From assembly GCA_963719515.1 (NCBI GenBank), contig CAVRCJ010000013.1, forward strand, positions 128,001 to 192,000: DNA of 64,000 bases. Direction: 5' to 3'. The notes under the pieces are model-generated. The model was not told where the DNA came from and did no database searches. It saw only the letters and a program-made list of their open reading frames with translations. Shown piece after piece: positions 20,042 through 56,598 of this stretch; the stretch's first letter is position 1, and every line of letters begins with the position of its first letter. Source of the stretch: an uncultured cyanobacterium. Lineage in GTDB: Bacteria > Cyanobacteriota > Cyanobacteriia > CAKZMO01. The position numbers and the translations under genes were made by a program.

Positions 20042-21150
20042 TGAGTATCCCAAACCGTATTCTAATTATTGGTGGCGGCATCGTTGGGGCAATGCTGGCC
20101 TATGAGCTGAGCCTGGCAGACTACCGCGTTACGCTTCTAGACCGGCAGGCTCCGGGGCAAGGGTCGACTGGAGCCGCGCTGGGCGTGATGATGGGAGCTA
20201 TCAGCCGTAAGATGAAGGGCCGCGCCTGGGCCATGCGCCAGCAAAGTTTGGTGCGCTACGAGGCGCTGATTCAAGAGCTGCAGCGGCAGGGTCACCCCGT
20301 AGACTACAACAGAGACGGTATCGTCAAGCTGCTGTTTAGAGGGGACAATCGCGATCGCTGGGAGGCCCTAGCCCTAGCGCGCCAGCAGCAGGGCTGGCCG
20401 CTGGCGCTTTGGAGCCCAGAAACGCTGCTGGCGCGCTGTCCGGGAGTTGCCCTAGAGAACCCTATTGCTGGCCCGGTCATCGGCGCGGTGCATTCCGCCG
20501 GCGATCGCCAGGTCCACCCCCAGCAGCTGACTTTAGCCCTGCTAGAAGCTGTCCAGCGCCGAGGAGCGGAGACGCGCTTTGATGCAGCAGTTCAAACCCT
20601 AGAAGAGGCGGGCGGTCCCTACGCCCTCTTGCAGAGCGGCGAACGATATGATGCCGATTGGATTGTGGTAACGGCGGGGCTAGGGTCAACGGCCTTGACC
20701 GGGCCTCGCCCTGAGGCAGCGGTCGACATTCGCCCGGTACTCGGCCAAGCGATGGAAGTGACCTTAGAGTCCCCTCTCAATGCCCATACCTTTCGGCCTG
20801 TAGTCACCGGAAATGACGTCCATGTAGTGCCGCTACTTAGCGCCTCAGACTCACCTCGCTGCTGGGTGGGGGCGACGGTAGAATTTCCGGAGGACGGCGA
20901 CGGCACGGCCATTGAGGCGGAGCGGCAGGCCATGTGGGCGGGGGCGATCGCCCTGTGTCCTGGCTTAGCCTCGGCCCAGGTGCTGCGAACTTGGTCTGGG
21001 AAGCGCCCCCGCCCCTATGGACGGCCTGCCCCGGTGATTGAGCGGTTGCCCGGATACGACCGGGTGATTGTTGCCAGCGGTCACTACCGAAACGGGGTGC
21101 TGCTGGCTCCGGCGACGGCGCGGCGGGTGATGGAGCTGCTAGACCTCTGA
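20041..21150 (+). CDS. FAD-dependent oxidoreductase (DAO/glycine oxidase family)
   Basis: GGGIVG Rossmann motif, WSGKRP and SGHYRNGVLLAP; ATG overlaps the upstream TGA. Confidence 0.88.
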   Translation: MSIPNRILIIGGGIVGAMLAYELSLADYRVTLLDRQAPGQGSTGAALGVMMGAISRKMKGRAWAMRQQSLVRYEALIQELQRQGHPVDYNRDGIVKLLFRGDNRDRWEALALARQQQGWPLALWSPETLLARCPGVALENPIAGPVIGAVHSAGDRQVHPQQLTLALLEAVQRRGAETRFDAAVQTLEEAGGPYALLQSGERYDADWIVVTAGLGSTALTGPRPEAAVDIRPVLGQAMEVTLESPLNAHTFRPVVTGNDVHVVPLLSASDSPRCWVGATVEFPEDGDGTAIEAERQAMWAGAIALCPGLASAQVLRTWSGKRPRPYGRPAPVIERLPGYDRVIVASGHYRNGVLLAPATARRVMELLDL

Positions 21151-21206
21151 TGTCAAGATTCCAGGGCGGAGTTGGTTACATCGCGTGCGCTTACTGCTCC
21201 AAACCT

Positions 21207-22388
21207 TTACTGCTGGGATAGGCGCTTCACAGAAGCCCCACCCAGGCGGCGGTGGGCGTCATTTAGCAAGTCTGGAATTTTGTCGCGATGGGGACTGCGG
21301 GCTAGGCAGGAAGCCAGGACCTTTGGGTCAACGCGACTAGCCTTGTTGCCGGGAAACCAGTGGCTGGCGTTGCCCAGCATGTTGTAGCGGGTTTGGGCGT
21401 AGTCCACCATGTCATAGGCGATCGCCAGGTTTCGCAGCCAAAGAATCGTGGGAATATTGAGGCTACCGGGGGTGTCTTGAGGCGTAGGGAGTCCCTGTCG
21501 CCAGGTTTTATGCCAGTCTTCACCCAGAGCATCGATAGCGGCCCGCTCCAGCCGATGCAAAATGGGCGGTAGAATTTCGTCAGCTCGCTCCAGTAGCGGT
21601 ACCGCTTTGAGGTGCTCGTCAAAATCCGATGGACGGGCCGCGCCAAGGCTAAGGGTATGGACTTGGGGGTGGCTGAGACAAAACAGGTCGTTGAACACCA
21701 TAGGGGATAGAGGCGCGCACAATCTCGCGAGCTTCGCGGGCGGGTCGTAGAGCTGTCCGCCCTTGTCGGAAGGGCTGATGATAAATACCCCCATATCCTG
21801 CTGAGTTGCAGCTTCGATAGCGGGCCAGTTAATTTGATGAATGTAGTACCAGTGGAGATTGACGTAGTCAAACCGCCCGGTTTGGATGGCGCTGACAATG
21901 ACGTCGGTGGGGCCATGGGTAGAAAAGCCCACGAAGCGGACCTTACCCTGCGCCTGCAGCGATCGCACTACGTCCAGACAGCCGCCAGGCTTAATGCTCC
22001 ACTCTAAGTGCTCAGGGGTGTTGATGCCGTGCAGCCCTAGTAGATCGACGTGGTCAAGCTTTAAGTTAGAGAGGGACTGGTCAAATACCTTTAAAAACTC
22101 CTTCGAATTAGCCTTAGGCGAGACTTTAGTTTGAACAATTAGCTGCTCTCGGGGAAGCTTAGGCAGGAGATTACCCAGCTGCGCCTCAGAGGTCCCATAG
22201 CCCCGAGCCGTCTCAATATGGTTGATGCCCACCGCTAGCGATCGCCGAATGGTCGCCTCTAGATTTTCCTGGTTCTTTTGGGGAATCGACCATTGGGGGA
22301 CGTCTTTCCAAGAATGCTGATAGCGCATTCCGCCACAGGAGAAAACGGGCATAGAAAGGTTTGTGCGGCCAAAGCGACGGTACTGCAT
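21207..22388 (-). CDS. Aldo/keto reductase
   Basis: MQYRRFGRT...GINHIETARGYG...GFSTHG. Confidence 0.9.
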   Translation of the reverse strand: MQYRRFGRTNLSMPVFSCGGMRYQHSWKDVPQWSIPQKNQENLEATIRRSLAVGINHIETARGYGTSEAQLGNLLPKLPREQLIVQTKVSPKANSKEFLKVFDQSLSNLKLDHVDLLGLHGINTPEHLEWSIKPGGCLDVVRSLQAQGKVRFVGFSTHGPTDVIVSAIQTGRFDYVNLHWYYIHQINWPAIEAATQQDMGVFIISPSDKGGQLYDPPAKLARLCAPLSPMVFNDLFCLSHPQVHTLSLGAARPSDFDEHLKAVPLLERADEILPPILHRLERAAIDALGEDWHKTWRQGLPTPQDTPGSLNIPTILWLRNLAIAYDMVDYAQTRYNMLGNASHWFPGNKASRVDPKVLASCLARSPHRDKIPDLLNDAHRRLGGASVKRLSQQ

Positions 22389-22432
22389 ACGATGAAATAG
22401 TCAAAGCGGGAGAGCTGAGAGCGGCTACTGCC

Positions 22433-23914
22433 CTAATGTAGCGCGATCTCAGCATCCTCGCGATGATGAATGGCCAGCCGGTCGAGGAGGGTAGAGCTGG
22501 CCTCATTGAGACCAATTAGCTCCACCTCGATGCCGTGCTTACGAAAGCGCAAGACTACTTTGTCCACCGCATCCACCGCTGATTGATCCCAGAGATGGGC
22601 ATGGGTGAGGTCGATAATGACGGTTTCGATCTCTTCACGAAAATCAAACGCCGCTAAAAACGGCTCGACCGAGACGAAGAAAATCTGGCCGCTGACGGTG
22701 TAAATGCGTTTCGCTTCGCTGATTGGGGTCGACTCCACTTCAATGAGAGCGGCAATCTTGCGGCTGAAGAAAATAGCGCTTAGGGCAACGCCAATAACAA
22801 CGCCGATAGCCAGATTGTGGGTGAGCAGCGTGACAATGATCGTCGCCACCATCACCGCTGTCTCACTTTTAGGCACCATGCGAATATTGCGCAAAGACGC
22901 CCAGCTAAACGTGCTGATGGACACCATGATCATCACCGCTACCAAAGCCGCCATAGGGATGCGGGCCACCCAGTCCCCCAACAGCAAAATGCAGGCCATC
23001 AGGAAAATTCCCGCGCTGAGGGTCGAGAGTCTTGTCCGTCCCCCCGAGCGAATATTAATGACCGACTGGCCGATCATGGCGCATCCGGCCATGCCGCCAA
23101 AGAAGCCTGCCACGATATTGGCGACGCCCTGGCCCACGGCCTCCTGATTTTTTTTGCTGCTGGTATCTGTCAAATCGTCGATCACATTTGCCGTCAAGAA
23201 AGACTCCAAAAGCCCCACAAGCGAGAGCGCTAGGGCATAGGGAAGAATGATCTCAATCGTCTCAAACGTCAGGGGCACAGTGGGAATGAACAGCCCCGGC
23301 AGAGTCGAGGGCAGGGTGCCCATATCGCCCACGGTGGGAACATCCCAGCCCATCGTAATGCTGAATCCCGTCAGCACTACGATGGCAATTAGGGGAGAGG
23401 GAATCACCTTGCTGATATAGGGCATGCCGTAGATGATGGCCAATCCCGCCAGGACCAAGAGGTATACTAGGGCCGGCACGTTCTCAAGCTGAGGCAGCTG
23501 GGCGCTGAAAATCAGAATGGCCAGCGCGTTGACAAAACCCAGCATGACGGCGCGGGGCACAAAGCGCATCTGGTTGCCCAATTTTACCCAGCCCCAAATA
23601 ATTTGTAGAATGCCCGTCAAGATGGTGGTGGCAAACAAATAGCTGATGCCATAATCTTTGACCAGCGTTGTCATCAGCAGGGCCATTGCCCCAGTCGCCG
23701 CCGAGATCATGCCCGGTCGCCCGCCCAAAAACGAGGTGACGATCGCAATACAAAACGAGGCGTATAGCCCCACCTTGGGGTCTACCCCAGCGATAATTGA
23801 AAAGGCGATCGCCTCCGGAATCAGCGCGAGCGCAACGACAGCGCCGGCTAGCAGATCATCACGGACGTTCGAAAACCAAGCCTGCTTCGTCAATACGGCG
23901 GTTGAATTCTCCAT
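22433..23914 (-). CDS. SulP family inorganic anion transporter with STAS domain
   Basis: LIPEAIAFS...[13 protein letters not shown]...[12 protein letters not shown] and a C-terminal STAS domain ([11 protein letters not shown]). Confidence 0.93.
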
Positions 23915-24071
23915 TCTTTCCTCTATAACTCCCCCTTGGCTACCCTTCAGTCTTCTCGCAGCCGATGCTTTTGCTAGGCGGTGCGGCCTTGGTCAGCAAA
24001 TCTCTCTATTTACAAGGGAAAACCTCAGATTACGTAAGCTGACGGGGAAAAGACCGCAATAGGGTTGTCAA

Positions 24072-24269
24072 GTGACATACTCCCGACGCTCATCTTTTAG
24101 ATAGAGCGCGGGCTTCTTGGCTCACGCACCACAATTTAATGGATGCCGCGCAAGAAGGTGTCCTGCTTCATCTGGTCCTGTCTAGTTACGCAGCAAGCCG
24201 TGCAACCCCGATTGGATCCCATCGACAGGCGATTTGTTTAATGTCCAGGCAATGACCAACCCCAGACAG
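24072..24269 (-). ncRNA. Putative TnpB omega/reRNA scaffold (copy A)
   Basis: 198-nt ungapped match to 56113-56310 (31 mismatches by hand count) with compensatory changes; abuts the IS right end. Confidence 0.65.
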
Positions 24270-24520
24270 TGACGAGTATTCAATTTCCAGCTACGTTTTC
24301 TACCGTCTGCACTGTTCACCAGCTAAGGGCTGTACGTTTGTGTCAGGATAGCAGGCCGCCGCCATGAAATAGTTTGAGCTTGGTTCAATTGTACCCTTTG
24401 CTCGCCTCGGCGCTGCCCTTAATTGCCGCCTTCGGCATCCAGTCAAGGGCGCACCTCGACTCGCTCGCTTACATCCCGACGCTGATGCTGCGCATACAGC
24501 GCGGGGCTGTCACGAACTAG
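24072..24520 (-). mobile_element. Non-autonomous IS200/IS605-type mini-element (copy A)
   Basis: Minus strand: TTTAG target, LE hairpin CCCGCGCTG...CAGCGTCGGG, no tnpA/tnpB ORF, RE hairpin GAAG-CCCGCGCTC...GAGCGTCGGG-AGTATGTCAC. Homologous to 56113-56534. Confidence 0.85.
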
Positions 24521-24616
24521 CTAAAATTGACTGCTTAGATAGACTGCAGATCGAGCGATAGCAGCCAATAATATCTATAGATAATTTTCTATGCCCTACC
24601 AGTATAAGTTAAAGAT

Positions 24617-25522
24617 ATGCAAAGCAAACAGGCCGCGAACCACCCGCTAGAGCATCGATTTCAGGCTGCTTTGGTGGGTGCCCTTTGGGGCTACGCCCAA
24701 GCGGACACCCAATCTCTCCCTTTTGCTCAGTGGGCCAGCCTCGTCGATTCCAGCCCCCAAACCGCTGAGCAGCTGTGGCGGCGCAGCAGCGGCGAGCCGT
24801 TGACCTTTTTGTTGGCGCTGCTGCCGCTGCTGCTAGCCTACAGTGACGATGAGGCCCAGCTGCGCGGCTGGGGGGCATTGCTAACTGGCCCTGCTGCTGC
24901 CGCTGCCCTCGAGGGCGCGAGCGTGCTGCGTCAAACCGTGGACGCTATTATCGGCGATCGCCCCTTGGGGAGTCTGTCTGAGCAGCACCCCTTCCTCTCT
25001 CCCTATTTACAGACGGCGTCGGCTTACTACGCCAGCGGGTCAGGACTTGTGCAGGTGAAAACGGCCCTAGAGCAGGTAGCTCGCGATCGCAATAGCGTTG
25101 CCCCGGAGTTTGCACCAAAATCCGCCCTGAGCGCCCCAGACTCTGTCGTCGATGTCGCCCCCAGGGTCACTGAAGATATGATTGCCCTGACCCTAGCGCT
25201 CCACAGCGCTTCGCGAACGCCGGGGCAGGTCGAGGTGGCCTGTCGGGCTACGGCTGCCGTGGTTGCCCCGGAGCAGGCGGGCGCTGCCGCGGCAGTCGCA
25301 GGATATCTGTGTGGCCTCACGCAGGGACTATCGGGCCTCTCCCTCGAGCGCTATCAGATGCTCGACGCGAAGCATTCTACCGCTGCAGACCCGGCCATAG
25401 CCACGACGACGGTCACCCAGCTGAGCCAGATCCTCTTGAGCCTGTGGAGCGGCGCGATCAGGCTCCACGCCGGACCGGTGGCGATCGCGATGCCTGGCAT
25501 CCTCCGGGCTGCGCGAGCCTGA
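24617..25522 (+). CDS. ADP-ribosylglycohydrolase-fold protein, apparently degenerate
   Basis: N-terminal RFQAALVGALWG and C-terminal AAAVAGYLCGLTQGLSGL resemble ARH helices; the canonical acidic metal motifs are not evident. Confidence 0.55.
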   Translation: MQSKQAANHPLEHRFQAALVGALWGYAQADTQSLPFAQWASLVDSSPQTAEQLWRRSSGEPLTFLLALLPLLLAYSDDEAQLRGWGALLTGPAAAAALEGASVLRQTVDAIIGDRPLGSLSEQHPFLSPYLQTASAYYASGSGLVQVKTALEQVARDRNSVAPEFAPKSALSAPDSVVDVAPRVTEDMIALTLALHSASRTPGQVEVACRATAAVVAPEQAGAAAAVAGYLCGLTQGLSGLSLERYQMLDAKHSTAADPAIATTTVTQLSQILLSLWSGAIRLHAGPVAIAMPGILRAARA

Positions 25523-25750
25523 TGGGTCGTACCTGTTGAGCTTAGCTATACTATATAGTCAGGGCAACCATGGTTAGGAAAAGGCAAAATTAGGGCAAAA
25601 CTGAATTACCCGTACAATCACCCAGCGGCGTGATCAATAGATTACCACCGGCTGTCGGTTGTACCTGACTCTTTCTTTTGATTAATTCTCAGTGTGTTCT
25701 AGTTGTTGTGCCCTGCGGTTACTGGTTTAGTCGTCTAGCGGTTAGTTGCT

Positions 25751-28390
25751 ATGAAGTCATTTCGCTTAATGGCGCAGCGCTTTGAGCAGTGGTGCTCACC
25801 GACAAACCGCTTATCCGGACGCCGGATGTCGTCGCGGCTTCAGAAGGCTGAGGTCTCTCCATCCTCAAAAGAATCCACCTCGAGGATAGACGCCGCTAGC
25901 GAAAAAAAATTCAGCGAGAATAAATTCAATAGCAAACAGGCCTCTCATGCGGGTACTCTCAGCCCAGCGCTGTCCGTGGAGGCCAATCGCTCCGGTCAGC
26001 GCGCGGCCAATCGTGGTTTGCTGGTCCAGTCTCGGGAATTGATGACCTGGCTAGGTGAGCATCCCTCTTGCTCTGGAACGACCCGCCCTAAACGAAAGAA
26101 GCTCAACCGCTACGCCGGCCCGCTGCTGTTCACTATTGCTGTCACCTCACTGACCAGCGCCGTTGGCTATCGGCTGTACAACAAGCCTCAGCTCAGCGTC
26201 GGGACGACCGCGCCCCAGACGCTGCACGCCCCCAGTACAGCAGCAGTTGAGGACGAAGAGACCACCGAGCAGCAGCGGCTAGAAGCAAGCCAGGGAGCAA
26301 TTCCAGTTCTCGCTATAGATTCTGACGTTAACCAGCGGATCTACCAGTCCCTCTCTCGACTAATTGATATAGGAGAGAACTATCGCGCTCAGGCCGGTCC
26401 CTTTCCATTCGTCGACTCGTCTATTTTGTCGACGACGGCTCAAGACTACCTGCGCACCGTTTCTAAAGAGGGCTGGCAGCGTATCCTCGCCGTGCTGGAA
26501 GACACCGATCAAACTGCCGCTGAGCCTTCTGTCGCCACAGCTCAGCCTACTCAAGAGCTGGCCATCCTTGAGATGCAGGGTTACAAAAACGTCGCTTCAG
26601 CAGACGACTTTTCGGCCCTCAAGCAGTCTATCATCCGGGCTCGGCAGAGCTACAGCGTCGCGGCAACTGCCTTGAGTTCGTCGGATGAACCCTCCACTCT
26701 GTTTGTCGATAGTCGAATTTTATCTCTGAGCGATCGCGACTGGAACCAGATCAAGCAGGTGATGCGCCAGACTCTGGAGAATATTTTGCTTCAGGGAGTT
26801 GCTAGAGGGCTTCCTGACGACCAGCTACAAAAGGCAGTCAGATCGCAGCTCAAAGACGTGGCTCCGCGCGACGCCGTTCCGCTAGCCGTCGCTTTTTTAT
26901 CAGACGCCATTCAGCCCAATTTGATTGAGGATACAGAGCAGACTCGGCTGCAGGCAGAGCGTACAGCAGAGGCGGTAGAGCCGGAGATTGTAGCAATTCG
27001 GCAGGGAGAAATTATCGTCGAGGCGGGTCAGAAGATAGAGCGATCGAACTTTGTCTTGCTCGATCACTTTGGCCTTAGCCGCCGCGGTGTGGACTGGCTA
27101 GGACTCATGGGCTTTGCCGGGGTTGTCGGTGGCTCTGTGGTGATCTTCTTGTTGGTGGAGCGCCGGTTTCATGCCCGCCTGCGACAGAGGGACCATATGC
27201 TGGTGTTGGGTCTGGCCCTCAGTACTCCTCTTCTCCTCGTTGTGAGTTTACCCTCCACTAGCCTGCCTGCCGTGGGGTTGCTGGTCGGCAGCTTTTACGG
27301 CTCGAGTCTGGGGTTGACGGTGGTGGCTCTGTTGGGTGCGATATTGCCCATCGGCATGACAGTTCCGTCTGCGCAGCTGATTTCTAGCGTTGCGGGGGGG
27401 CTAGTGGGCACCCTACTGGCGGGGCGGCTGCGCTCTCGTGAGGAACTGGCGCTGCTGGGAGGTGCTGTGGGCTTAGTTCAAGGGATAGTCTACTTGATCG
27501 TCAGCTTGATTATCAGCACGGCCACCAGTCCTGTTTGGCTGGTCATGCTCACGACTTCCTTTATTCAGGCGCTTATGGGGGTCGCCTGGAGCATCGCGGC
27601 CTTGGGCATCAGCCCTTACTTAGAAAACTTGTTCGACCTGGTGACGCCCATTCGGCTGGTAGAACTATCAAACCCCAACCGACCCACCCTCAAGCGGCTG
27701 GCCTCAGAGGCTCCAGGAACCTTTCAGCATACGCTGTTCGTGGCTAGCCTAGCGGAGGCTGCAGCCCGGGAGTTGGGCTGCAACGTTGAGCTGGTGAGGG
27801 CAGGCACGCTCTATCACGACATCGGCAAGATGCACGACCCCGAGGGATTCATCGAAAATCAAATGGGGGGGACCAACAAACACGACTTGATTGACAACCC
27901 TTGGACCAGCGCCCAAATCATCAAAAAGCACGTCAGCGCGGGATTGGTGATGGCCCGTAAATGCCGCCTGCCAGGAGCAATTCAGGCTTTTATCCCGGAG
28001 CATCAGGGAACGATGCTAATCACCTACTTTTATTACCAGGCCAAGGAGCGCGCCAAGGCAGACCCCACTATTGAGGTCAAAGAAGAGGACTTTCGCTACT
28101 GCGGGCCAACGCCTCAGTCCCGTGAAACAGGTATTGTGATGGTGGCCGACTCTTGCGAAGCGGCCCTGCGATCGCTCAAAGACGCTACCCCCGAAGAAGC
28201 ATTGGCTATGGTGAATCGAATTATGCGAGCCCGCTGGCAAGACAACCAGCTGGTCGACTCGGGGCTAAGCCGCCAAGATATGGCTCGCATTGCCGAGATC
28301 TTTGTGCGGGTGTGGCAGCAGTACAACCACAAACGGATCCCCTACCCGAAAGCGGCGCTCATGCCTCCCCCCTCACCAGTATCGCTCTAG
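25751..28390 (+). CDS. 7TM-HD family phosphohydrolase (PgpH-like)
   Basis: Extracytoplasmic domain and TM bundle, then APGTFQH, YHDIGK, EHQGT, FRYxGPxPQSRE and ADSCEAA. Confidence 0.92.
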   Translation: MKSFRLMAQRFEQWCSPTNRLSGRRMSSRLQKAEVSPSSKESTSRIDAASEKKFSENKFNSKQASHAGTLSPALSVEANRSGQRAANRGLLVQSRELMTWLGEHPSCSGTTRPKRKKLNRYAGPLLFTIAVTSLTSAVGYRLYNKPQLSVGTTAPQTLHAPSTAAVEDEETTEQQRLEASQGAIPVLAIDSDVNQRIYQSLSRLIDIGENYRAQAGPFPFVDSSILSTTAQDYLRTVSKEGWQRILAVLEDTDQTAAEPSVATAQPTQELAILEMQGYKNVASADDFSALKQSIIRARQSYSVAATALSSSDEPSTLFVDSRILSLSDRDWNQIKQVMRQTLENILLQGVARGLPDDQLQKAVRSQLKDVAPRDAVPLAVAFLSDAIQPNLIEDTEQTRLQAERTAEAVEPEIVAIRQGEIIVEAGQKIERSNFVLLDHFGLSRRGVDWLGLMGFAGVVGGSVVIFLLVERRFHARLRQRDHMLVLGLALSTPLLLVVSLPSTSLPAVGLLVGSFYGSSLGLTVVALLGAILPIGMTVPSAQLISSVAGGLVGTLLAGRLRSREELALLGGAVGLVQGIVYLIVSLIISTATSPVWLVMLTTSFIQALMGVAWSIAALGISPYLENLFDLVTPIRLVELSNPNRPTLKRLASEAPGTFQHTLFVASLAEAAARELGCNVELVRAGTLYHDIGKMHDPEGFIENQMGGTNKHDLIDNPWTSAQIIKKHVSAGLVMARKCRLPGAIQAFIPEHQGTMLITYFYYQAKERAKADPTIEVKEEDFRYCGPTPQSRETGIVMVADSCEAALRSLKDATPEEALAMVNRIMRARWQDNQLVDSGLSRQDMARIAEIFVRVWQQYNHKRIPYPKAALMPPPSPVSL

Positions 28391-46685: not shown

Positions 46686-47976
46686 TTGACATCCTCCCCG
46701 CCCTGAAGAGCGGGGATTCCCGGTCTGCCCACTAGGTGGACTCCCGACGGGTGGACGCCTCAGCGCGGATTGCCCCTGACGAGGTCTTATGCCCGCTCCG
46801 CGTCCGTTTAGAGTCTCGGGCTAGCTCCAGCCCAGACGTTTCAATATTGCGGCTAGCATTGCCGTCCCGGTCTTGGGTTTTGCCGCAACCAAGACAGACC
46901 AGCTCTCGAACCGACAGCTCCAGCTTGCCCCAGCGGTAGCCGCAGTCGGCACACTTCTGGCTAGTCGGCTCCCACCGGCTGATGACCGATACCTCGCGTT
47001 CCAGTATCATCGCGGCCTTGGCCTCGCACATCGTTCGCAGATCACGCCAGCCCTGTTGCGCAATAGCGCGGGCCAACTTGCGGTTGCGCACCATGCCGGA
47101 CACGTTCAGGTCTTCAATAGCCACAACGCTATGGTTGCGAATCAGCCAGGTCGAGAGCTTATGCAGAAAATCCTTGCGGATGTCCCGCTGCTTGGCCTTC
47201 AGCTTAGCGATGCGCAGCCGGGTGCGCTCACGGCGCTTCGACCCCTTGACGCGCCTATTCAGCTTGCGCTGCTCACGGCGTATCTTGCGGCCAATGCGGT
47301 CGTAACCAGGAGACTCAACGCGCTGGCCGCTGCTGAGCACCGCGAACGTCTTGATACCCAAGTCCACACCCACGCTTTGGTTCTTGGCGGGGATGCTGAC
47401 GGGTTGAATCAGGGCGACAAAGCTCAGGAAATAGCGGCCAGCGCGGTCTTTGATAACCGTTACCGACGAGGACTCAGGTGGTAGCGGCCTTGACCAGCGC
47501 ACCTTAAGGTTACCTACCTTGGCTAGATACACCTTGTCGCCCTTGAGCGAGAAGCCGCCCTTGCGGAATCGCGCCGACTGGCGATTGTCTTTACGCTTGA
47601 ACCGGGGCGGCATCACCTTTGGTCCTTTGCGCTTGCCTTTGAGCGAATCAAAGAAGTTTTTGAACGCTACGCCCAAATCGGCGATGGACTGCTGCAGCGG
47701 GATATTTGATACCTCGCTCAGCCACTGGCGCTCAACCGTTTTCTTGGCCTGCGTGATGCAAGCCTTCTGAAGGTCGCCATTCTTAGGCAGCGAATCCGAC
47801 TCCTTGCACAGTGCTAGGGCGTCGTTCCACACGACACGGCAGCAGCCAAACAGCTTGGCTAAGCTGATCTGCTGTCCGGACGTGGGATAGACGCGGTACT
47901 GGTAGCGGCACTTCATAAATACAATTGTCCTACAAAAGCCGCCCTAAAGGGCGGGGCTTGAGACCCAGTTTTTTTG
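46686..47976 (-). mobile_element. tnpB-only IS200/IS605 family element (IS1341-type)
   Basis: Minus strand: (C)TGAC target, LE CAAAAAAACTGGGTCTCAAGCCCCGCCCTTTAGGGCGGCTTTT, tnpB, RE GAAT-CCCCGCTCTTCAGGGCGGGG-AGGATGTCAA. No tnpA. Confidence 0.9.
46732..47916 (-). CDS. tnpB: RNA-guided endonuclease TnpB
   Basis: HTH YRVYPT...FGCCRVVWN, RuvC-I GVDLG, RuvC-II IEDLN, Zn finger CADC/CLGC and RuvC-III DRDGNA. Confidence 0.96.
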   Translation of the reverse strand: MKCRYQYRVYPTSGQQISLAKLFGCCRVVWNDALALCKESDSLPKNGDLQKACITQAKKTVERQWLSEVSNIPLQQSIADLGVAFKNFFDSLKGKRKGPKVMPPRFKRKDNRQSARFRKGGFSLKGDKVYLAKVGNLKVRWSRPLPPESSSVTVIKDRAGRYFLSFVALIQPVSIPAKNQSVGVDLGIKTFAVLSSGQRVESPGYDRIGRKIRREQRKLNRRVKGSKRRERTRLRIAKLKAKQRDIRKDFLHKLSTWLIRNHSVVAIEDLNVSGMVRNRKLARAIAQQGWRDLRTMCEAKAAMILEREVSVISRWEPTSQKCADCGYRWGKLELSVRELVCLGCGKTQDRDGNASRNIETSGLELARDSKRTRSGHKTSSGAIRAEASTRREST

Positions 47977-55743: not shown

Positions 55744-56112
55744 TCCGCCGGTTGAAGGGGCCAGTGCTGACAGGGTGCGTCGGAGCAGTCGCTATCTGAG
55801 CAAAGGCAAACAAAGGCGCTGATGCGGCCTAAGGACATCACAGAATTTAGGCTCGCTTAGGAGAGTGCTAGATTTGTTTGCACGTGCAAAATTTTCATAA
55901 CTTAATAGATTTATTTGGTAACCTACTCGTTGAGGCTTTTGTTGGGATAGCGGAAAAAGGTGACTTTCTTCTCATCTACAGGGTGTAAAAGCAGCTCTTT
56001 TATGAAGTGCGATCGCCGCTATCAGCCACCACCAGTTGGCTGACTATCTCAATGTTCTTAGAGCTGCGCTACTCGTGAAGTATCAGAGCTACAACCGTCT
56101 CAATCTTTAGCC

Positions 56113-56310
56113 GTGACATACTCCCGACGCTCATTCTACGAATAGAGCGCGGGCTTCTTGGCTCGCGCACCACAAATGAATGGGTACCGCACAAGAAAGT
56201 TTCCTGCTTCTCCTGGTCTTGTCTAGCCAAACAGCAAGCTGTATGACCCCGATTAGATCCCATCCACAGGCAATTTATTTTACGTCCAGGCAATGACCAA
56301 CCCCAGACAG
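56113..56310 (-). ncRNA. Putative TnpB omega/reRNA scaffold (copy B)
   Basis: Homologous to 24072-24269 with compensatory changes; one frame resembles a TnpB C-terminal tail (GHCLDVK*IACGWDL...EARAL). Confidence 0.65.
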
Positions 56311-56534
56311 ACTACTTTTTTGAGCTTCCTTTCTTCCAAAAACTGTGTCGCGTCACCGTTATGTTTTCTATGGGTGATATTTTTCTCGACGAACACTCTG
56401 GAGGGGTGGAAAACCTTGTAAACAGTTGATATGTATACATTCTAGCATGAATAAGGATTGTTCGCCTTTGGCTCACGCGCCTTTCATCCCGACGCTGATG
56501 CTGCGCATACAGCGCGGGACTTCCCGTCTAAGAG
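56113..56534 (-). mobile_element. Non-autonomous IS200/IS605-type mini-element (copy B)
   Basis: Minus strand: TTTAA target, a 34-nt LE hairpin identical to copy A (56485-56518 = 24472-24505), and an RE ending AGTATGTCAC. No transposase ORF. Confidence 0.85.
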
Positions 56535-56598
56535 TTAAAAAGCAATAGTTCTATAAAGGCGAGTTTGAGGCAATAACCTTTAGAGAGAGGCAAAAACT

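What the first reader, a model, noticed from the sequence alone, without database searches (positions are those of the whole stretch)
24072..24520. Protein-free IS605-type mini-elements that look like stand-alone TnpB guide-RNA genes (copy A; partner at 56113-56534)
Seen: two intergenic segments 32 kb apart share an identical 34-nt left-end hairpin and an ungapped 198-nt right-end block (31 mismatches by hand, ~84% identity), with unrelated ~170-200-nt middles and no tnpA/tnpB ORF. The differences cluster as compensatory or GU-preserving pairs. Plus strand: ATCT-ttt-AGAT vs ATTC-tac-GAAT at the top of the RE hairpin. Minus strand: GTTGCACGGC-tt-GCTGCGTAAC vs GTCATACAGC-tt-GCTGTTTGGC, and CTTGCGC/GCGTGAG vs CTTGTGC/GCGCGAG. 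Established: TnpB omega/reRNA is encoded by the tnpB 3' end plus the IS right end, and the flank just beyond RE is the guide. TnpA needs only the terminal hairpins. Inference: keeping the whole scaffold while losing the protein suggests a dispersed set of mobile guide cassettes loaded in trans onto a TnpB or a nuclease-dead derivative. The copy A guide would begin TTGACAACCCTATTGC.
Basis: partly seen in the sequence, partly recalled or inferred. Interest (0 to 1): 0.78.

Follow-up and report, generated by a model that had tools for sequence, protein, structure and literature searches.

The report
Gene-less TnpB guide-RNA mini-transposons
Two short repeats in this cyanobacterial genome are copies of protein-less jumping elements that keep only their ends, a promoter-like region and the folded guide-RNA part of a TnpB transposon; such stand-alone guide elements are already described, so this is a well-documented new example and not a new kind.

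Summary
Copy A (24072-24520) and copy B (56113-56534) share an identical 34-nt hairpin and an ungapped 198-nt block with 31 mismatches. Neither holds a TnpA- or TnpB-like frame.

They are IS200/IS605 mini-elements of the PATE type. They insert after TTTAG or TTTAA and end in GTCAC. The genome holds at least 79 such protein-free elements: 18 type A, 4 B, 2 B', 2 D and 53 of a further type G.

The 198-nt block is a distant but clear homologue of the tnpB 3' end plus right end of resident TnpB elements, which is where the guide (omega) RNA is encoded. The TnpB reading frame is broken, but the helices are kept by compensatory changes, and only on the window's minus strand.

Candidate partners are present: intact TnpBs with the same target motifs, and Y1 TnpA genes.

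Use of the RNA in trans is inferred, not shown. No expression data could be obtained, and no guide has a second target in the genome.

Stand-alone, mobilised omega RNAs and omega-RNA-bearing PATEs are already in print, and this scan has noted similar elements before, including one in this same genome. Verdict: real, well supported, a new member of a known kind.

The parts
24521..24525 (-). Target/transposon-adjacent motif of copy A (TTTAG on the minus strand), directly 5' of the left end
   Evidence: Flanks of all copies compared; census of ends
24462..24520 (-). Left end (LE) of copy A with the imperfect hairpin CCCCGCGCT...AGCGTCGGG. Its first ~72 nt match the LE of the resident tnpB-bearing subfamily 'fam1b'
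   Evidence: Hairpin matched by model R1 at 24475-24505; LE alignment with fam1b; same LE string in 5 tnpB-bearing elements
24386..24479 (-). LE-proximal structured module ending in a -10-like box (GGGTACAAT; TACAAT = 24388-24393). It is shared by types A, D, E and G and by protein-free elements of other cyanobacteria, and is absent from copy B
   Evidence: nhmmer profile, 76 hits in the genome; RNAalifold with covariation and G-U pairs on this strand; model R2 match at C13:152386-152479
24281..24385 (-). Leader of unknown origin between the -10-like box and the scaffold (127 nt from box to scaffold). It is shared with type D and unrelated to copy B's leader
   Evidence: Alignments; spacing table
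24072..24280 (-).
   Evidence: Model R1, 238 bits; homology to tnpB 3' end plus RE; covariation
24052..24071 (-). Inferred guide of copy A (TTGACAACCCTATTGCGGTC): the flank directly 3' of the right end
   Evidence: Read. Its role as a guide is inferred from the published TnpB rule (passages). No second target was found
56535..56539 (-). Target motif of copy B (TTTAA on the minus strand)
56439..56534 (-). LE of copy B (hairpin at 56488-56518) plus LE-proximal region ending in the -10-like box TGCTAGAAT (56439-56447). About 88 nt match the LE and tnpB-upstream region of resident subfamily 'fam1a'
   Evidence: Blastn 95-96% over 74-78 nt to fam1a left ends; alignment; hairpin match
56322..56438 (-). 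Leader of copy B, shared only with types B and B'
56113..56321 (-). Omega-RNA-like scaffold of copy B (block 56113-56310; RE hairpin 56123-56153). The TnpB-homologous frame reads IACGWDL...QEARAL
   Evidence: Model R1, 249 bits; frame translation; match of ACGWDL to the C-terminus of a tnpB-linked relative
56093..56112 (-). Inferred guide of copy B (GGCTAAAGATTGAGACGGTT)
   Evidence: no second target

Best explanation
Copies A and B are non-autonomous, protein-free IS200/IS605 elements (PATE type). They arose from TnpB-only insertion sequences by loss of the tnpB reading frame. What they keep is the two hairpin ends, the LE-proximal tnpB-upstream (promoter-like) region and the whole omega-RNA scaffold at the right end. 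A Y1 TnpA encoded elsewhere in the genome moves them as single-stranded DNA to sites just 3' of TTTAG or TTTAA (inferred from anatomy and copy pattern). A minus-strand RNA ending in the first ~16-20 nt of the right flank is probably made from each copy and bound in trans by a resident fam1-type TnpB (inferred). [quoted passage not shown] The scaffold would then be kept by selection at the level of the element, not for any host target.
For: Mobility:
- There are 18 type A copies at 98.4-99.3% identity and 4 type B copies at about 99%, all in different flanks.
- Target motif and terminal GTCAC are conserved, and no flanking duplication is seen.
- The syntenic sulP/orf301 spacer of all 4 congeners lacks the element: 0 of 4 have an R1 match.
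- Y1 TnpA genes are present (14 matches). One is a 159-aa full-length Y1_Tnp next to a fam2 tnpB, and its element's hairpin stems match those of the mini-elements.

The scaffold is the omega-RNA region:
- A profile and a covariance model built from the block hit the region right after the TnpB zinc-ribbon, running to the right end, of resident fam1 elements at 51-73 bits.
- A tnpB-linked relative in another cyanobacterium (L060) has the same central domain. Its TnpB is 78% identical to resident fam1a TnpB and ends ...ACGWDL, as does copy B's homologous frame.

RNA-level rather than protein-level constraint:
- The TnpB frame carries 2 stops in A, a 1-nt indel in B' and a frame change in D.
- 93.2% of cells pair and 31 of 46 pairs show changes on both sides in 15 protein-free sequences. 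No shuffle of 500 reached this, and slid controls gave 36-46%.
- MAFFT plus RNAalifold, independent of the model, recovers the main helices.
- Between A and B, 1 of 59 pairs of B's own MFE is broken in A, against 9.6 +/- 2.1 for random placement (0 of 2000 trials). On the opposite strand 12-13 pairs break.

Partners:
- 62 of 69 TnpB-like frames of at least 250 aa keep D-E-D.
- fam1b shares type A's LE and TTTAG; fam1a shares type B's LE and TTTAA.

Precedent: passages read in PMC10055086 and PMC10691335.
Against: - No tnpB-bearing element of this genome carries this exact scaffold or right-end terminus. fam1 ends in GTATTCAC, not GTATGTCAC, and scores 51-73 bits against about 240 for the mini-elements. 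Compatibility with a resident TnpB is therefore assumed.
- The consensus promoter scan finds no sigma-70-type site in either copy. The -10-like box is my own reading.
- Among the 18 type A copies the scaffold is not clearly poorer in polymorphisms than the leader: 6 variable columns in 149 nt against 12 in 193 nt.
- The covariation may largely have been inherited from tnpB-bearing ancestors.
- The counts were made on alignments fitted to the model's structure.
- With A's own MFE, which is a different fold, the A-to-B test is not significant: 8 of 74 pairs broken against 8.9 expected.
Confidence: 0.65

Rival explanations
1. Inert relic: the elements are ordinary IS200/IS605 MITEs/PATEs moved by TnpA. 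The omega-RNA region is just what an internal deletion happened to leave. It is not transcribed or used, and its structure reflects ancestry and youth.
For: TnpA needs only the ends (recalled; partly in the passages). Type A copies are very young, at 98-99% identity. Polymorphisms do not spare the scaffold. No matching tnpB-bearing parent remains in the genome. The consensus promoter scan is negative.
Against: Across types A, B, B' and D the leader is unalignable, yet the block is 84-89% identical and starts exactly at the foot of the first scaffold hairpin. The TnpB frame is destroyed in different ways while helices are kept by compensatory and G-U changes. Protein-free elements of three different end types and of several genera all keep a TGnTAnAAT box at a near-constant 124-161 nt from the scaffold.
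Confidence: 0.2
2. Host-serving guides: the cassettes programme a TnpB, or a nuclease-dead TnpB-like repressor, against host promoters, phages or plasmids, as TldR-type regulators do.
For: Two full-length fam1b TnpB copies carry an 8-aa insertion that removes the catalytic Glu. Copy A's RNA would read towards a sulfate-permease gene 157 nt away.
Against: For all 79 guides the nearest TTTAR-flanked 16-mer in the genome is 3-6 mismatches away, much like shuffled guides at 4-6. TAM plus guide of A and B has 0 exact matches in viral contigs. Every guide is simply the local flank of a recently inserted, mobile copy. The Glu-less copies look like ordinary decay in 2 of 5 fam1b elements.
Confidence: 0.05
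3. The conserved helices act as single-stranded DNA in transposition, or the element mainly works as a mobile promoter or other non-guide RNA through its 5' module.
For: The strand that folds is also the 'top' strand handled by TnpA, so G-T pairs cannot tell RNA from ssDNA. Types A, D, E and G share a structured LE-proximal module with covariation.
Against: Helices 1-6 are homologous to the region that encodes omega RNA in tnpB-bearing relatives. Copy B lacks the module yet keeps the scaffold. In one genome the module lies 53 nt upstream of a TnpB N-terminus, so it is probably the native tnpB upstream region.
Confidence: 0.08

Closest known systems
Stand-alone omega RNAs of OMEGA systems (Altae-Tran et al. 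2021, as summarised in the introduction of PMC10691335; passages read)
   Same: They are mobilised, lack effector and transposase, sit in the same genome as effector-bearing loci, and take their guide from the flank beyond the transposon end.
   Different: Function in trans was shown there and is not tested here. Here the scaffold differs from that of every resident tnpB-bearing copy, and the left ends match two different resident subfamilies.
PATE-like IS200/IS605 elements of Geobacillus stearothermophilus (Meers et al., preprint PMC10055086; passages read)
   Same: Protein-free elements with LE and RE hairpins. The paper states that they 'often encode omega RNAs' needing TnpB in trans. TnpA is supplied in trans, and the model is homing/retention.
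   Different: Different host phylum and scaffold. Copy number here is much higher (at least 79) and exceeds the 28 related tnpB-bearing elements.
ISDra2 / IS608-type TnpB-omega RNA (solved TnpB 8bf8/8exa/8h1j)
   Same: Resident fam1a TnpB matches ISDra2 TnpB (E 1e-26). The omega RNA overlaps the tnpB 3' end and stops at the right end.
   Different: No tnpB inside these elements. The scaffold sequence matches no Rfam family.
TldR, nuclease-dead TnpB-like repressors with guide RNAs (recalled; abstract of PMC13622181 seen in the listing)
   Same: An RNA-guided TnpB relative using a guide next to a scaffold.
   Different: TldR loci are immobile and their guides match host promoters. Here the copies are mobile and no guide has a target.

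Membership tests
IS200/IS605 non-autonomous element (PATE) | Imperfect subterminal hairpins at both ends, no terminal inverted repeats | tested here: met
   LE and RE hairpins CCCGCGCT...AGCGTCGGG with a bulged base in all types. The hairpin sub-model matches both ends.
IS200/IS605 non-autonomous element (PATE) | Insertion 3' of a conserved short target motif, no target-site duplication | tested here: met
   TTTAG/NTTAG before 17 of 18 type A copies (TCTAG before the other) and TTTAA before 6 of 6 B and B' copies. The right flanks are unrelated to the left flanks.
IS200/IS605 non-autonomous element (PATE) | No protein-coding gene inside | tested here: met
   No ORF over 74 aa. No TnpB-like frame at E<=1 in the copies or at E<=1e-3 in other mini-elements.
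IS200/IS605 non-autonomous element (PATE) | A Y1 (HUH) TnpA in the genome acting on like ends | tested here: inconclusive
   There are 14 Y1_Tnp matches. An intact 159-aa TnpA lies in a fam2 element whose hairpin stems match. Activity on these ends was not tested.
IS200/IS605 non-autonomous element (PATE) | Evidence of recent transposition | tested here: met
   There are 18 plus 4 near-identical copies in distinct flanks. The syntenic site is empty of the element in 4 of 4 congeners.
TnpB omega RNA (reRNA) | Homology or position: the region from the tnpB 3' end to the right end, guide starting at the transposon boundary | tested here: met
   Profile and CM matches fall right after the TnpB zinc-ribbon up to the RE in fam1 elements and in foreign tnpB-linked loci.
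TnpB omega RNA (reRNA) | Conserved secondary structure supported by covariation on the sense strand | tested here: met
   Caveat: the alignments were fitted to the model.
TnpB omega RNA (reRNA) | Transcribed and processed to a discrete RNA | not testable with these tools
Needs RNA-seq of this strain.
TnpB omega RNA (reRNA) | Bound by a TnpB and directing TAM-dependent cleavage | not testable with these tools
   Needs RIP-seq and an interference assay. Candidate TnpBs with D-E-D are present.
TldR-type guide RNA | Partner is a nuclease-dead, immobilised TnpB relative and the guide matches a host target next to a TAM | tested here: not met
   No TTTAR-flanked match under 3 mismatches for any of 79 guides. 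The elements are mobile.
Any Rfam 15 family | Match to a curated covariance model | tested here: not met
   0 matches at gathering score apart from one tRNA. 0 matches at E<=1 on the elements and on tnpB-bearing relatives.

The most novel reading that the evidence does not exclude
The protein-free elements may be more than passive deletion products. They could form a self-sustaining lineage of omega-RNA-only transposons that parasitise both TnpA and TnpB of other elements. They outnumber the related tnpB-bearing elements 79 to 28. They carry a scaffold type whose own tnpB-bearing form is no longer in the genome. They have swapped left ends with two different resident subfamilies. Most share a structured 5' module and a leader of near-constant length, so the real product may be a composite RNA of about 350-400 nt whose front half does something beyond guiding, or titrates TnpB away from its own elements.
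Probability: 0.2. Interest if true: 0.55.

Novelty: new member of a known kind. Interest (0 to 1): 0.3.

Why it matters
This is a clean natural case in which the protein gene of an RNA-guided transposon has been lost while promoter region, guide scaffold and ends are kept and amplified to about 80 copies. It fits the view that omega RNA, TnpB and TnpA are separable modules that act in trans, and that guide RNAs themselves can be the unit of selfish spread. The genome offers a ready test bed: several scaffold types, two target motifs, and intact as well as Glu-less TnpBs. It could be used to ask which TnpB accepts which stand-alone guide, and whether guide-only elements compete with their helpers.

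Tried and rejected
- Expression: the look-up of sequencing runs on window 21000-28000, kind rna. No RNA holder was listed.
- Rfam: nothing at gathering score or at E<=1.
- Consensus promoter/terminator scan: 0 sites in either copy.
- Search for a tnpB-bearing parent with the same central domain, by exact pattern. There was 1 hit in genome contigs and 2 in metagenome contigs. All three have no R1 match, so they are chance hits.
- blastn of the block in 40 relatives found only the RE hairpin.
- TAM plus guide of A and B in viral contigs: 0 matches. Plasmid and phage BLAST collections were not searched, because a 20-nt guide is below their query length.
- Second genomic targets of 79 guides: none.
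- Within-family polymorphism as a test of constraint: too few events.
- A-alone MFE as a reference structure: it is a different fold and the test is not significant.
- Rejected idea 1: that the first hairpin (S1) type separates an old protein-free lineage from tnpB-linked scaffolds. The loop GTGGGNCAT also occurs in tnpB-linked fam2-type and L059-type scaffolds.
- Rejected idea 2: that the LE-proximal module is exclusive to protein-free elements. That holds for all loci I held from this genome and its family. In G153, however, a weak module match lies 53 nt upstream of a TnpB N-terminal HTH.
- Empty-site test for copy B: its right flank has no match in the 4 congeners.
- timed out and was rewritten. 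One search failed on wrong frame coordinates and was corrected.

Full report
**Observation.** The window is C13:128001-192000 of a 5.28-Mb, 21-contig genome.
- An ungapped 198-nt block at the low-coordinate end is 84.3% identical, which is 31 mismatches.
- A run of 34 identical bases forms the hairpin at the other end.
- The middles do not align.
- No ORF exceeds 74 aa. It finds only one in the window, at 46735-47943.

**Census.** blastn of the block finds 26 loci:
- 18 type A copies (449 nt, 98.4-99.3% identical to copy A);
- 4 type B copies (422 nt, about 99%);
- 2 type B' copies (88% to B);
- 2 divergent type D copies, which share A's middle and lack one hairpin.

The covariance model then revealed a further family, type G: 397 nt, with 53 copies at 97% identity or more. 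That makes 79 protein-free elements. Seventy-eight end in GTCAC and one in GTCGC. Read on the window's minus strand, each element starts right after a target motif: TTTAG in 12 of 18 A copies, GTTAG in 3, ATTAG in 1, CTTAG in 1, TCTAG in 1, and TTTAA in 6 of 6 B and B' copies. This is the anatomy of IS200/IS605 elements. That family definition is recalled; part of it is in the passages.

**Helpers.** The genome has 81 matches to the TnpB zinc-ribbon domain and 14 to Y1_Tnp. A regular-expression census of paired ends finds 28 tnpB-bearing elements with the same kind of hairpins:
- 7 'fam1a' (TTTAA | CTGGTAGAC or CTATTAGAC..., 1378-1429 nt), plus one 816-nt remnant;
- 5 'fam1b' (TTTAG | CTAGTTCGTG..., 1404-1452 nt);
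- 16 'fam2' (TTTAG | CTACTAGAC..., 1467-1784 nt).

The 1784-nt fam2 copy also carries an intact 159-aa Y1 TnpA. Type A's left end is that of fam1b and type B's is that of fam1a, in each case with the same target motif. Type G's ends are those of fam2. Of 69 TnpB-like frames of at least 250 aa, 62 keep the D-E-D triad. fam1a TnpB matches ISDra2 TnpB at E 1e-26.

**What the block is.** blastn sees only the right-end hairpin shared with tnpB-bearing elements. More sensitive methods reach further.
- An nhmmer profile and a covariance model R1 built from A, B, B' and D match the stretch running from just after the zinc-ribbon to the right end of fam1 elements, at 51-73 bits.
- The shared strings are AAAT.GCCTGTGGA, CGGGG, CTAG, AAGCAGGAA and GAAGCCCGCGCT...GGGAGTAT.
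- A class-level search found matches in 35 of 151 genomes at E<=1e-8. It gave a tnpB-linked relative (L060) with the same central domain. Its TnpB is 78% identical to fam1a and ends ...ACGWDL, exactly what copy B's homologous frame reads.
- The block is therefore the omega-RNA-coding region of a fam1-like element.
- No tnpB-bearing copy with this exact scaffold is in the genome. The 26 mini-elements score 176-249 bits and the next best match 73 bits. Exact-pattern scans of genome and metagenome collections gave only chance hits.

**RNA constraint, not protein constraint.** In the TnpB-homologous frame A has two stops, B' a 1-nt indel and D a frame change. Only B is open. The helices nevertheless persist.
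- In 19 sequences (15 protein-free, 4 tnpB-linked), 93.6% of cells pair and 35 of 46 pairs show changes on both sides.
- In the 15 protein-free sequences alone the figures are 93.2% and 31 of 46. No shuffle of 500 reached these values, and slid partners gave 36-46%.
- Those alignments were fitted to the model. MAFFT plus RNAalifold, independent of the model, recovers helix 2, the long hairpin and part of helix 1, with 14 of 22 pairs compensatory.
- For A against B alone, 17 of 31 mismatches lie in paired columns and all 13 affected pairs are kept. That test is circular, because the fold came from both sequences.
- Using B's own MFE, 1 of 59 pairs is broken in A, against 9.6 +/- 2.1 expected (0 of 2000 trials).
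- Using A's own MFE, which is a different fold, the result is null: 8 of 74 broken against 8.9 expected.
- On the opposite strand 12-13 pairs break.
- Invariant G-U pairs also point to the minus strand.

**Upstream part.** All types carry a TGnTAnAAT box 124-161 nt upstream of the scaffold. The strict promoter scan finds nothing.
- In A, D, E and G the box ends a roughly 95-nt module with its own co-varying stem-loop.
- The module has 76 hits in this genome. By my comparison of coordinates, all lie in protein-free elements.
- It was found in 12 of 151 cyanobacterial genomes.
- In 12 foreign loci it is followed by leader, scaffold and right end with no TnpB-like frame.
- In one genome a weak match lies 53 nt upstream of a TnpB N-terminal HTH. 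It is therefore probably a native tnpB upstream region.
- Copy B instead keeps the fam1a upstream region.

**Spread elsewhere.** Of 22 foreign loci from the order-level search, 15 have no TnpB-like frame within 1.5 kb and 7 do. Six of the neighbouring ORFs were scanned against Pfam: four are host genes (GGT, histidine kinase, FtsW, subtilase), one has only a Rho_N match and one has no match. Of 24 further loci from the class-level search, 13 abut a TnpB frame, 9 have none, and 2 have one only at a distance. Protein-free scaffolds are thus common in cyanobacteria.

**Mobility and targets.** In all four congeners the sulP and orf301 homologues are neighbours, as they are around copy A. The spacers measure about 92-441 nt, with no R1 match. 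Copy A is therefore an insertion in this lineage. None of the 79 guides has a TTTAR-flanked 16-mer closer than 3 mismatches, which is like shuffled guides. TAM plus guide of A and B is not found in viral contigs. This fits a homing or retention role and argues against host or phage targeting.

**Comparison with what is known.** PMC10691335 states that stand-alone omega RNAs, mobilised and lacking effector and transposase, occur beside effector loci and work in trans (passages). PMC10055086 states that PATEs often encode omega RNAs that must be acted on in trans by TnpB (passages). Earlier notes of this scan describe like elements, one of them in this same genome. The finding is real and well supported, and it is a new member of a known kind.

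Noticed in passing
G000 genome-wide, e.g. C10:3313-3709 (locus L019); nearest to the window is C13:33123-33519: Type G: a 397-nt protein-free element in 53 copies (97% identity or more). Its ends match the fam2 TnpB/TnpA elements, and it has a shorter scaffold that lacks the central domain.
   Followed up: partly
G000 C7:179600-180200 (L020) and C4:97880-98480 (L021): Type E: the same 5' module and a class-I scaffold, but a different end type (right end ...GGGGGAGAGCRTCAA and no CCCGCGCT hairpins). Similar to protein-free elements of G007, G008 and G012.
   Followed up: partly
window 46732-47916 (-): A 394-aa TnpB (HTH_OrfB_IS605, OrfB_IS605 and Cas12f1-like_TNB domains) of a third family. Seven genome matches share its 403-aa open frame and near-identical scores. 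Model R1 does not match its ends.
   Followed up: partly
G000 C3:360732-362078 and C7:5565-6539: Two of five fam1b TnpB copies carry an 8-residue insertion that replaces the catalytic Glu of RuvC-II (IIFVE-DLD becomes IIFAVGAACPKDI-DLD). One of them is still a full-length 449-aa frame.
   Followed up: partly
window 24386-24479 (-) and 75 further places in G000: A roughly 95-nt LE-proximal module with a co-varying stem-loop and invariant G-U pairs on the element's sense strand. Found in 12 of 151 cyanobacterial genomes. Whether it is part of the RNA, an operator or a single-stranded DNA structure is open.
   Followed up: partly
window 22433-24071 (-): Copy A's predicted RNA runs towards the start of a SulP/STAS sulfate-permease gene 157 nt downstream on the same strand, so read-through into that gene is possible.
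   Followed up: no
G000 C6:288151-288389: A further decayed relative of type A: a module match and 69% identity over about 240 nt, with no recognised scaffold.
   Followed up: no
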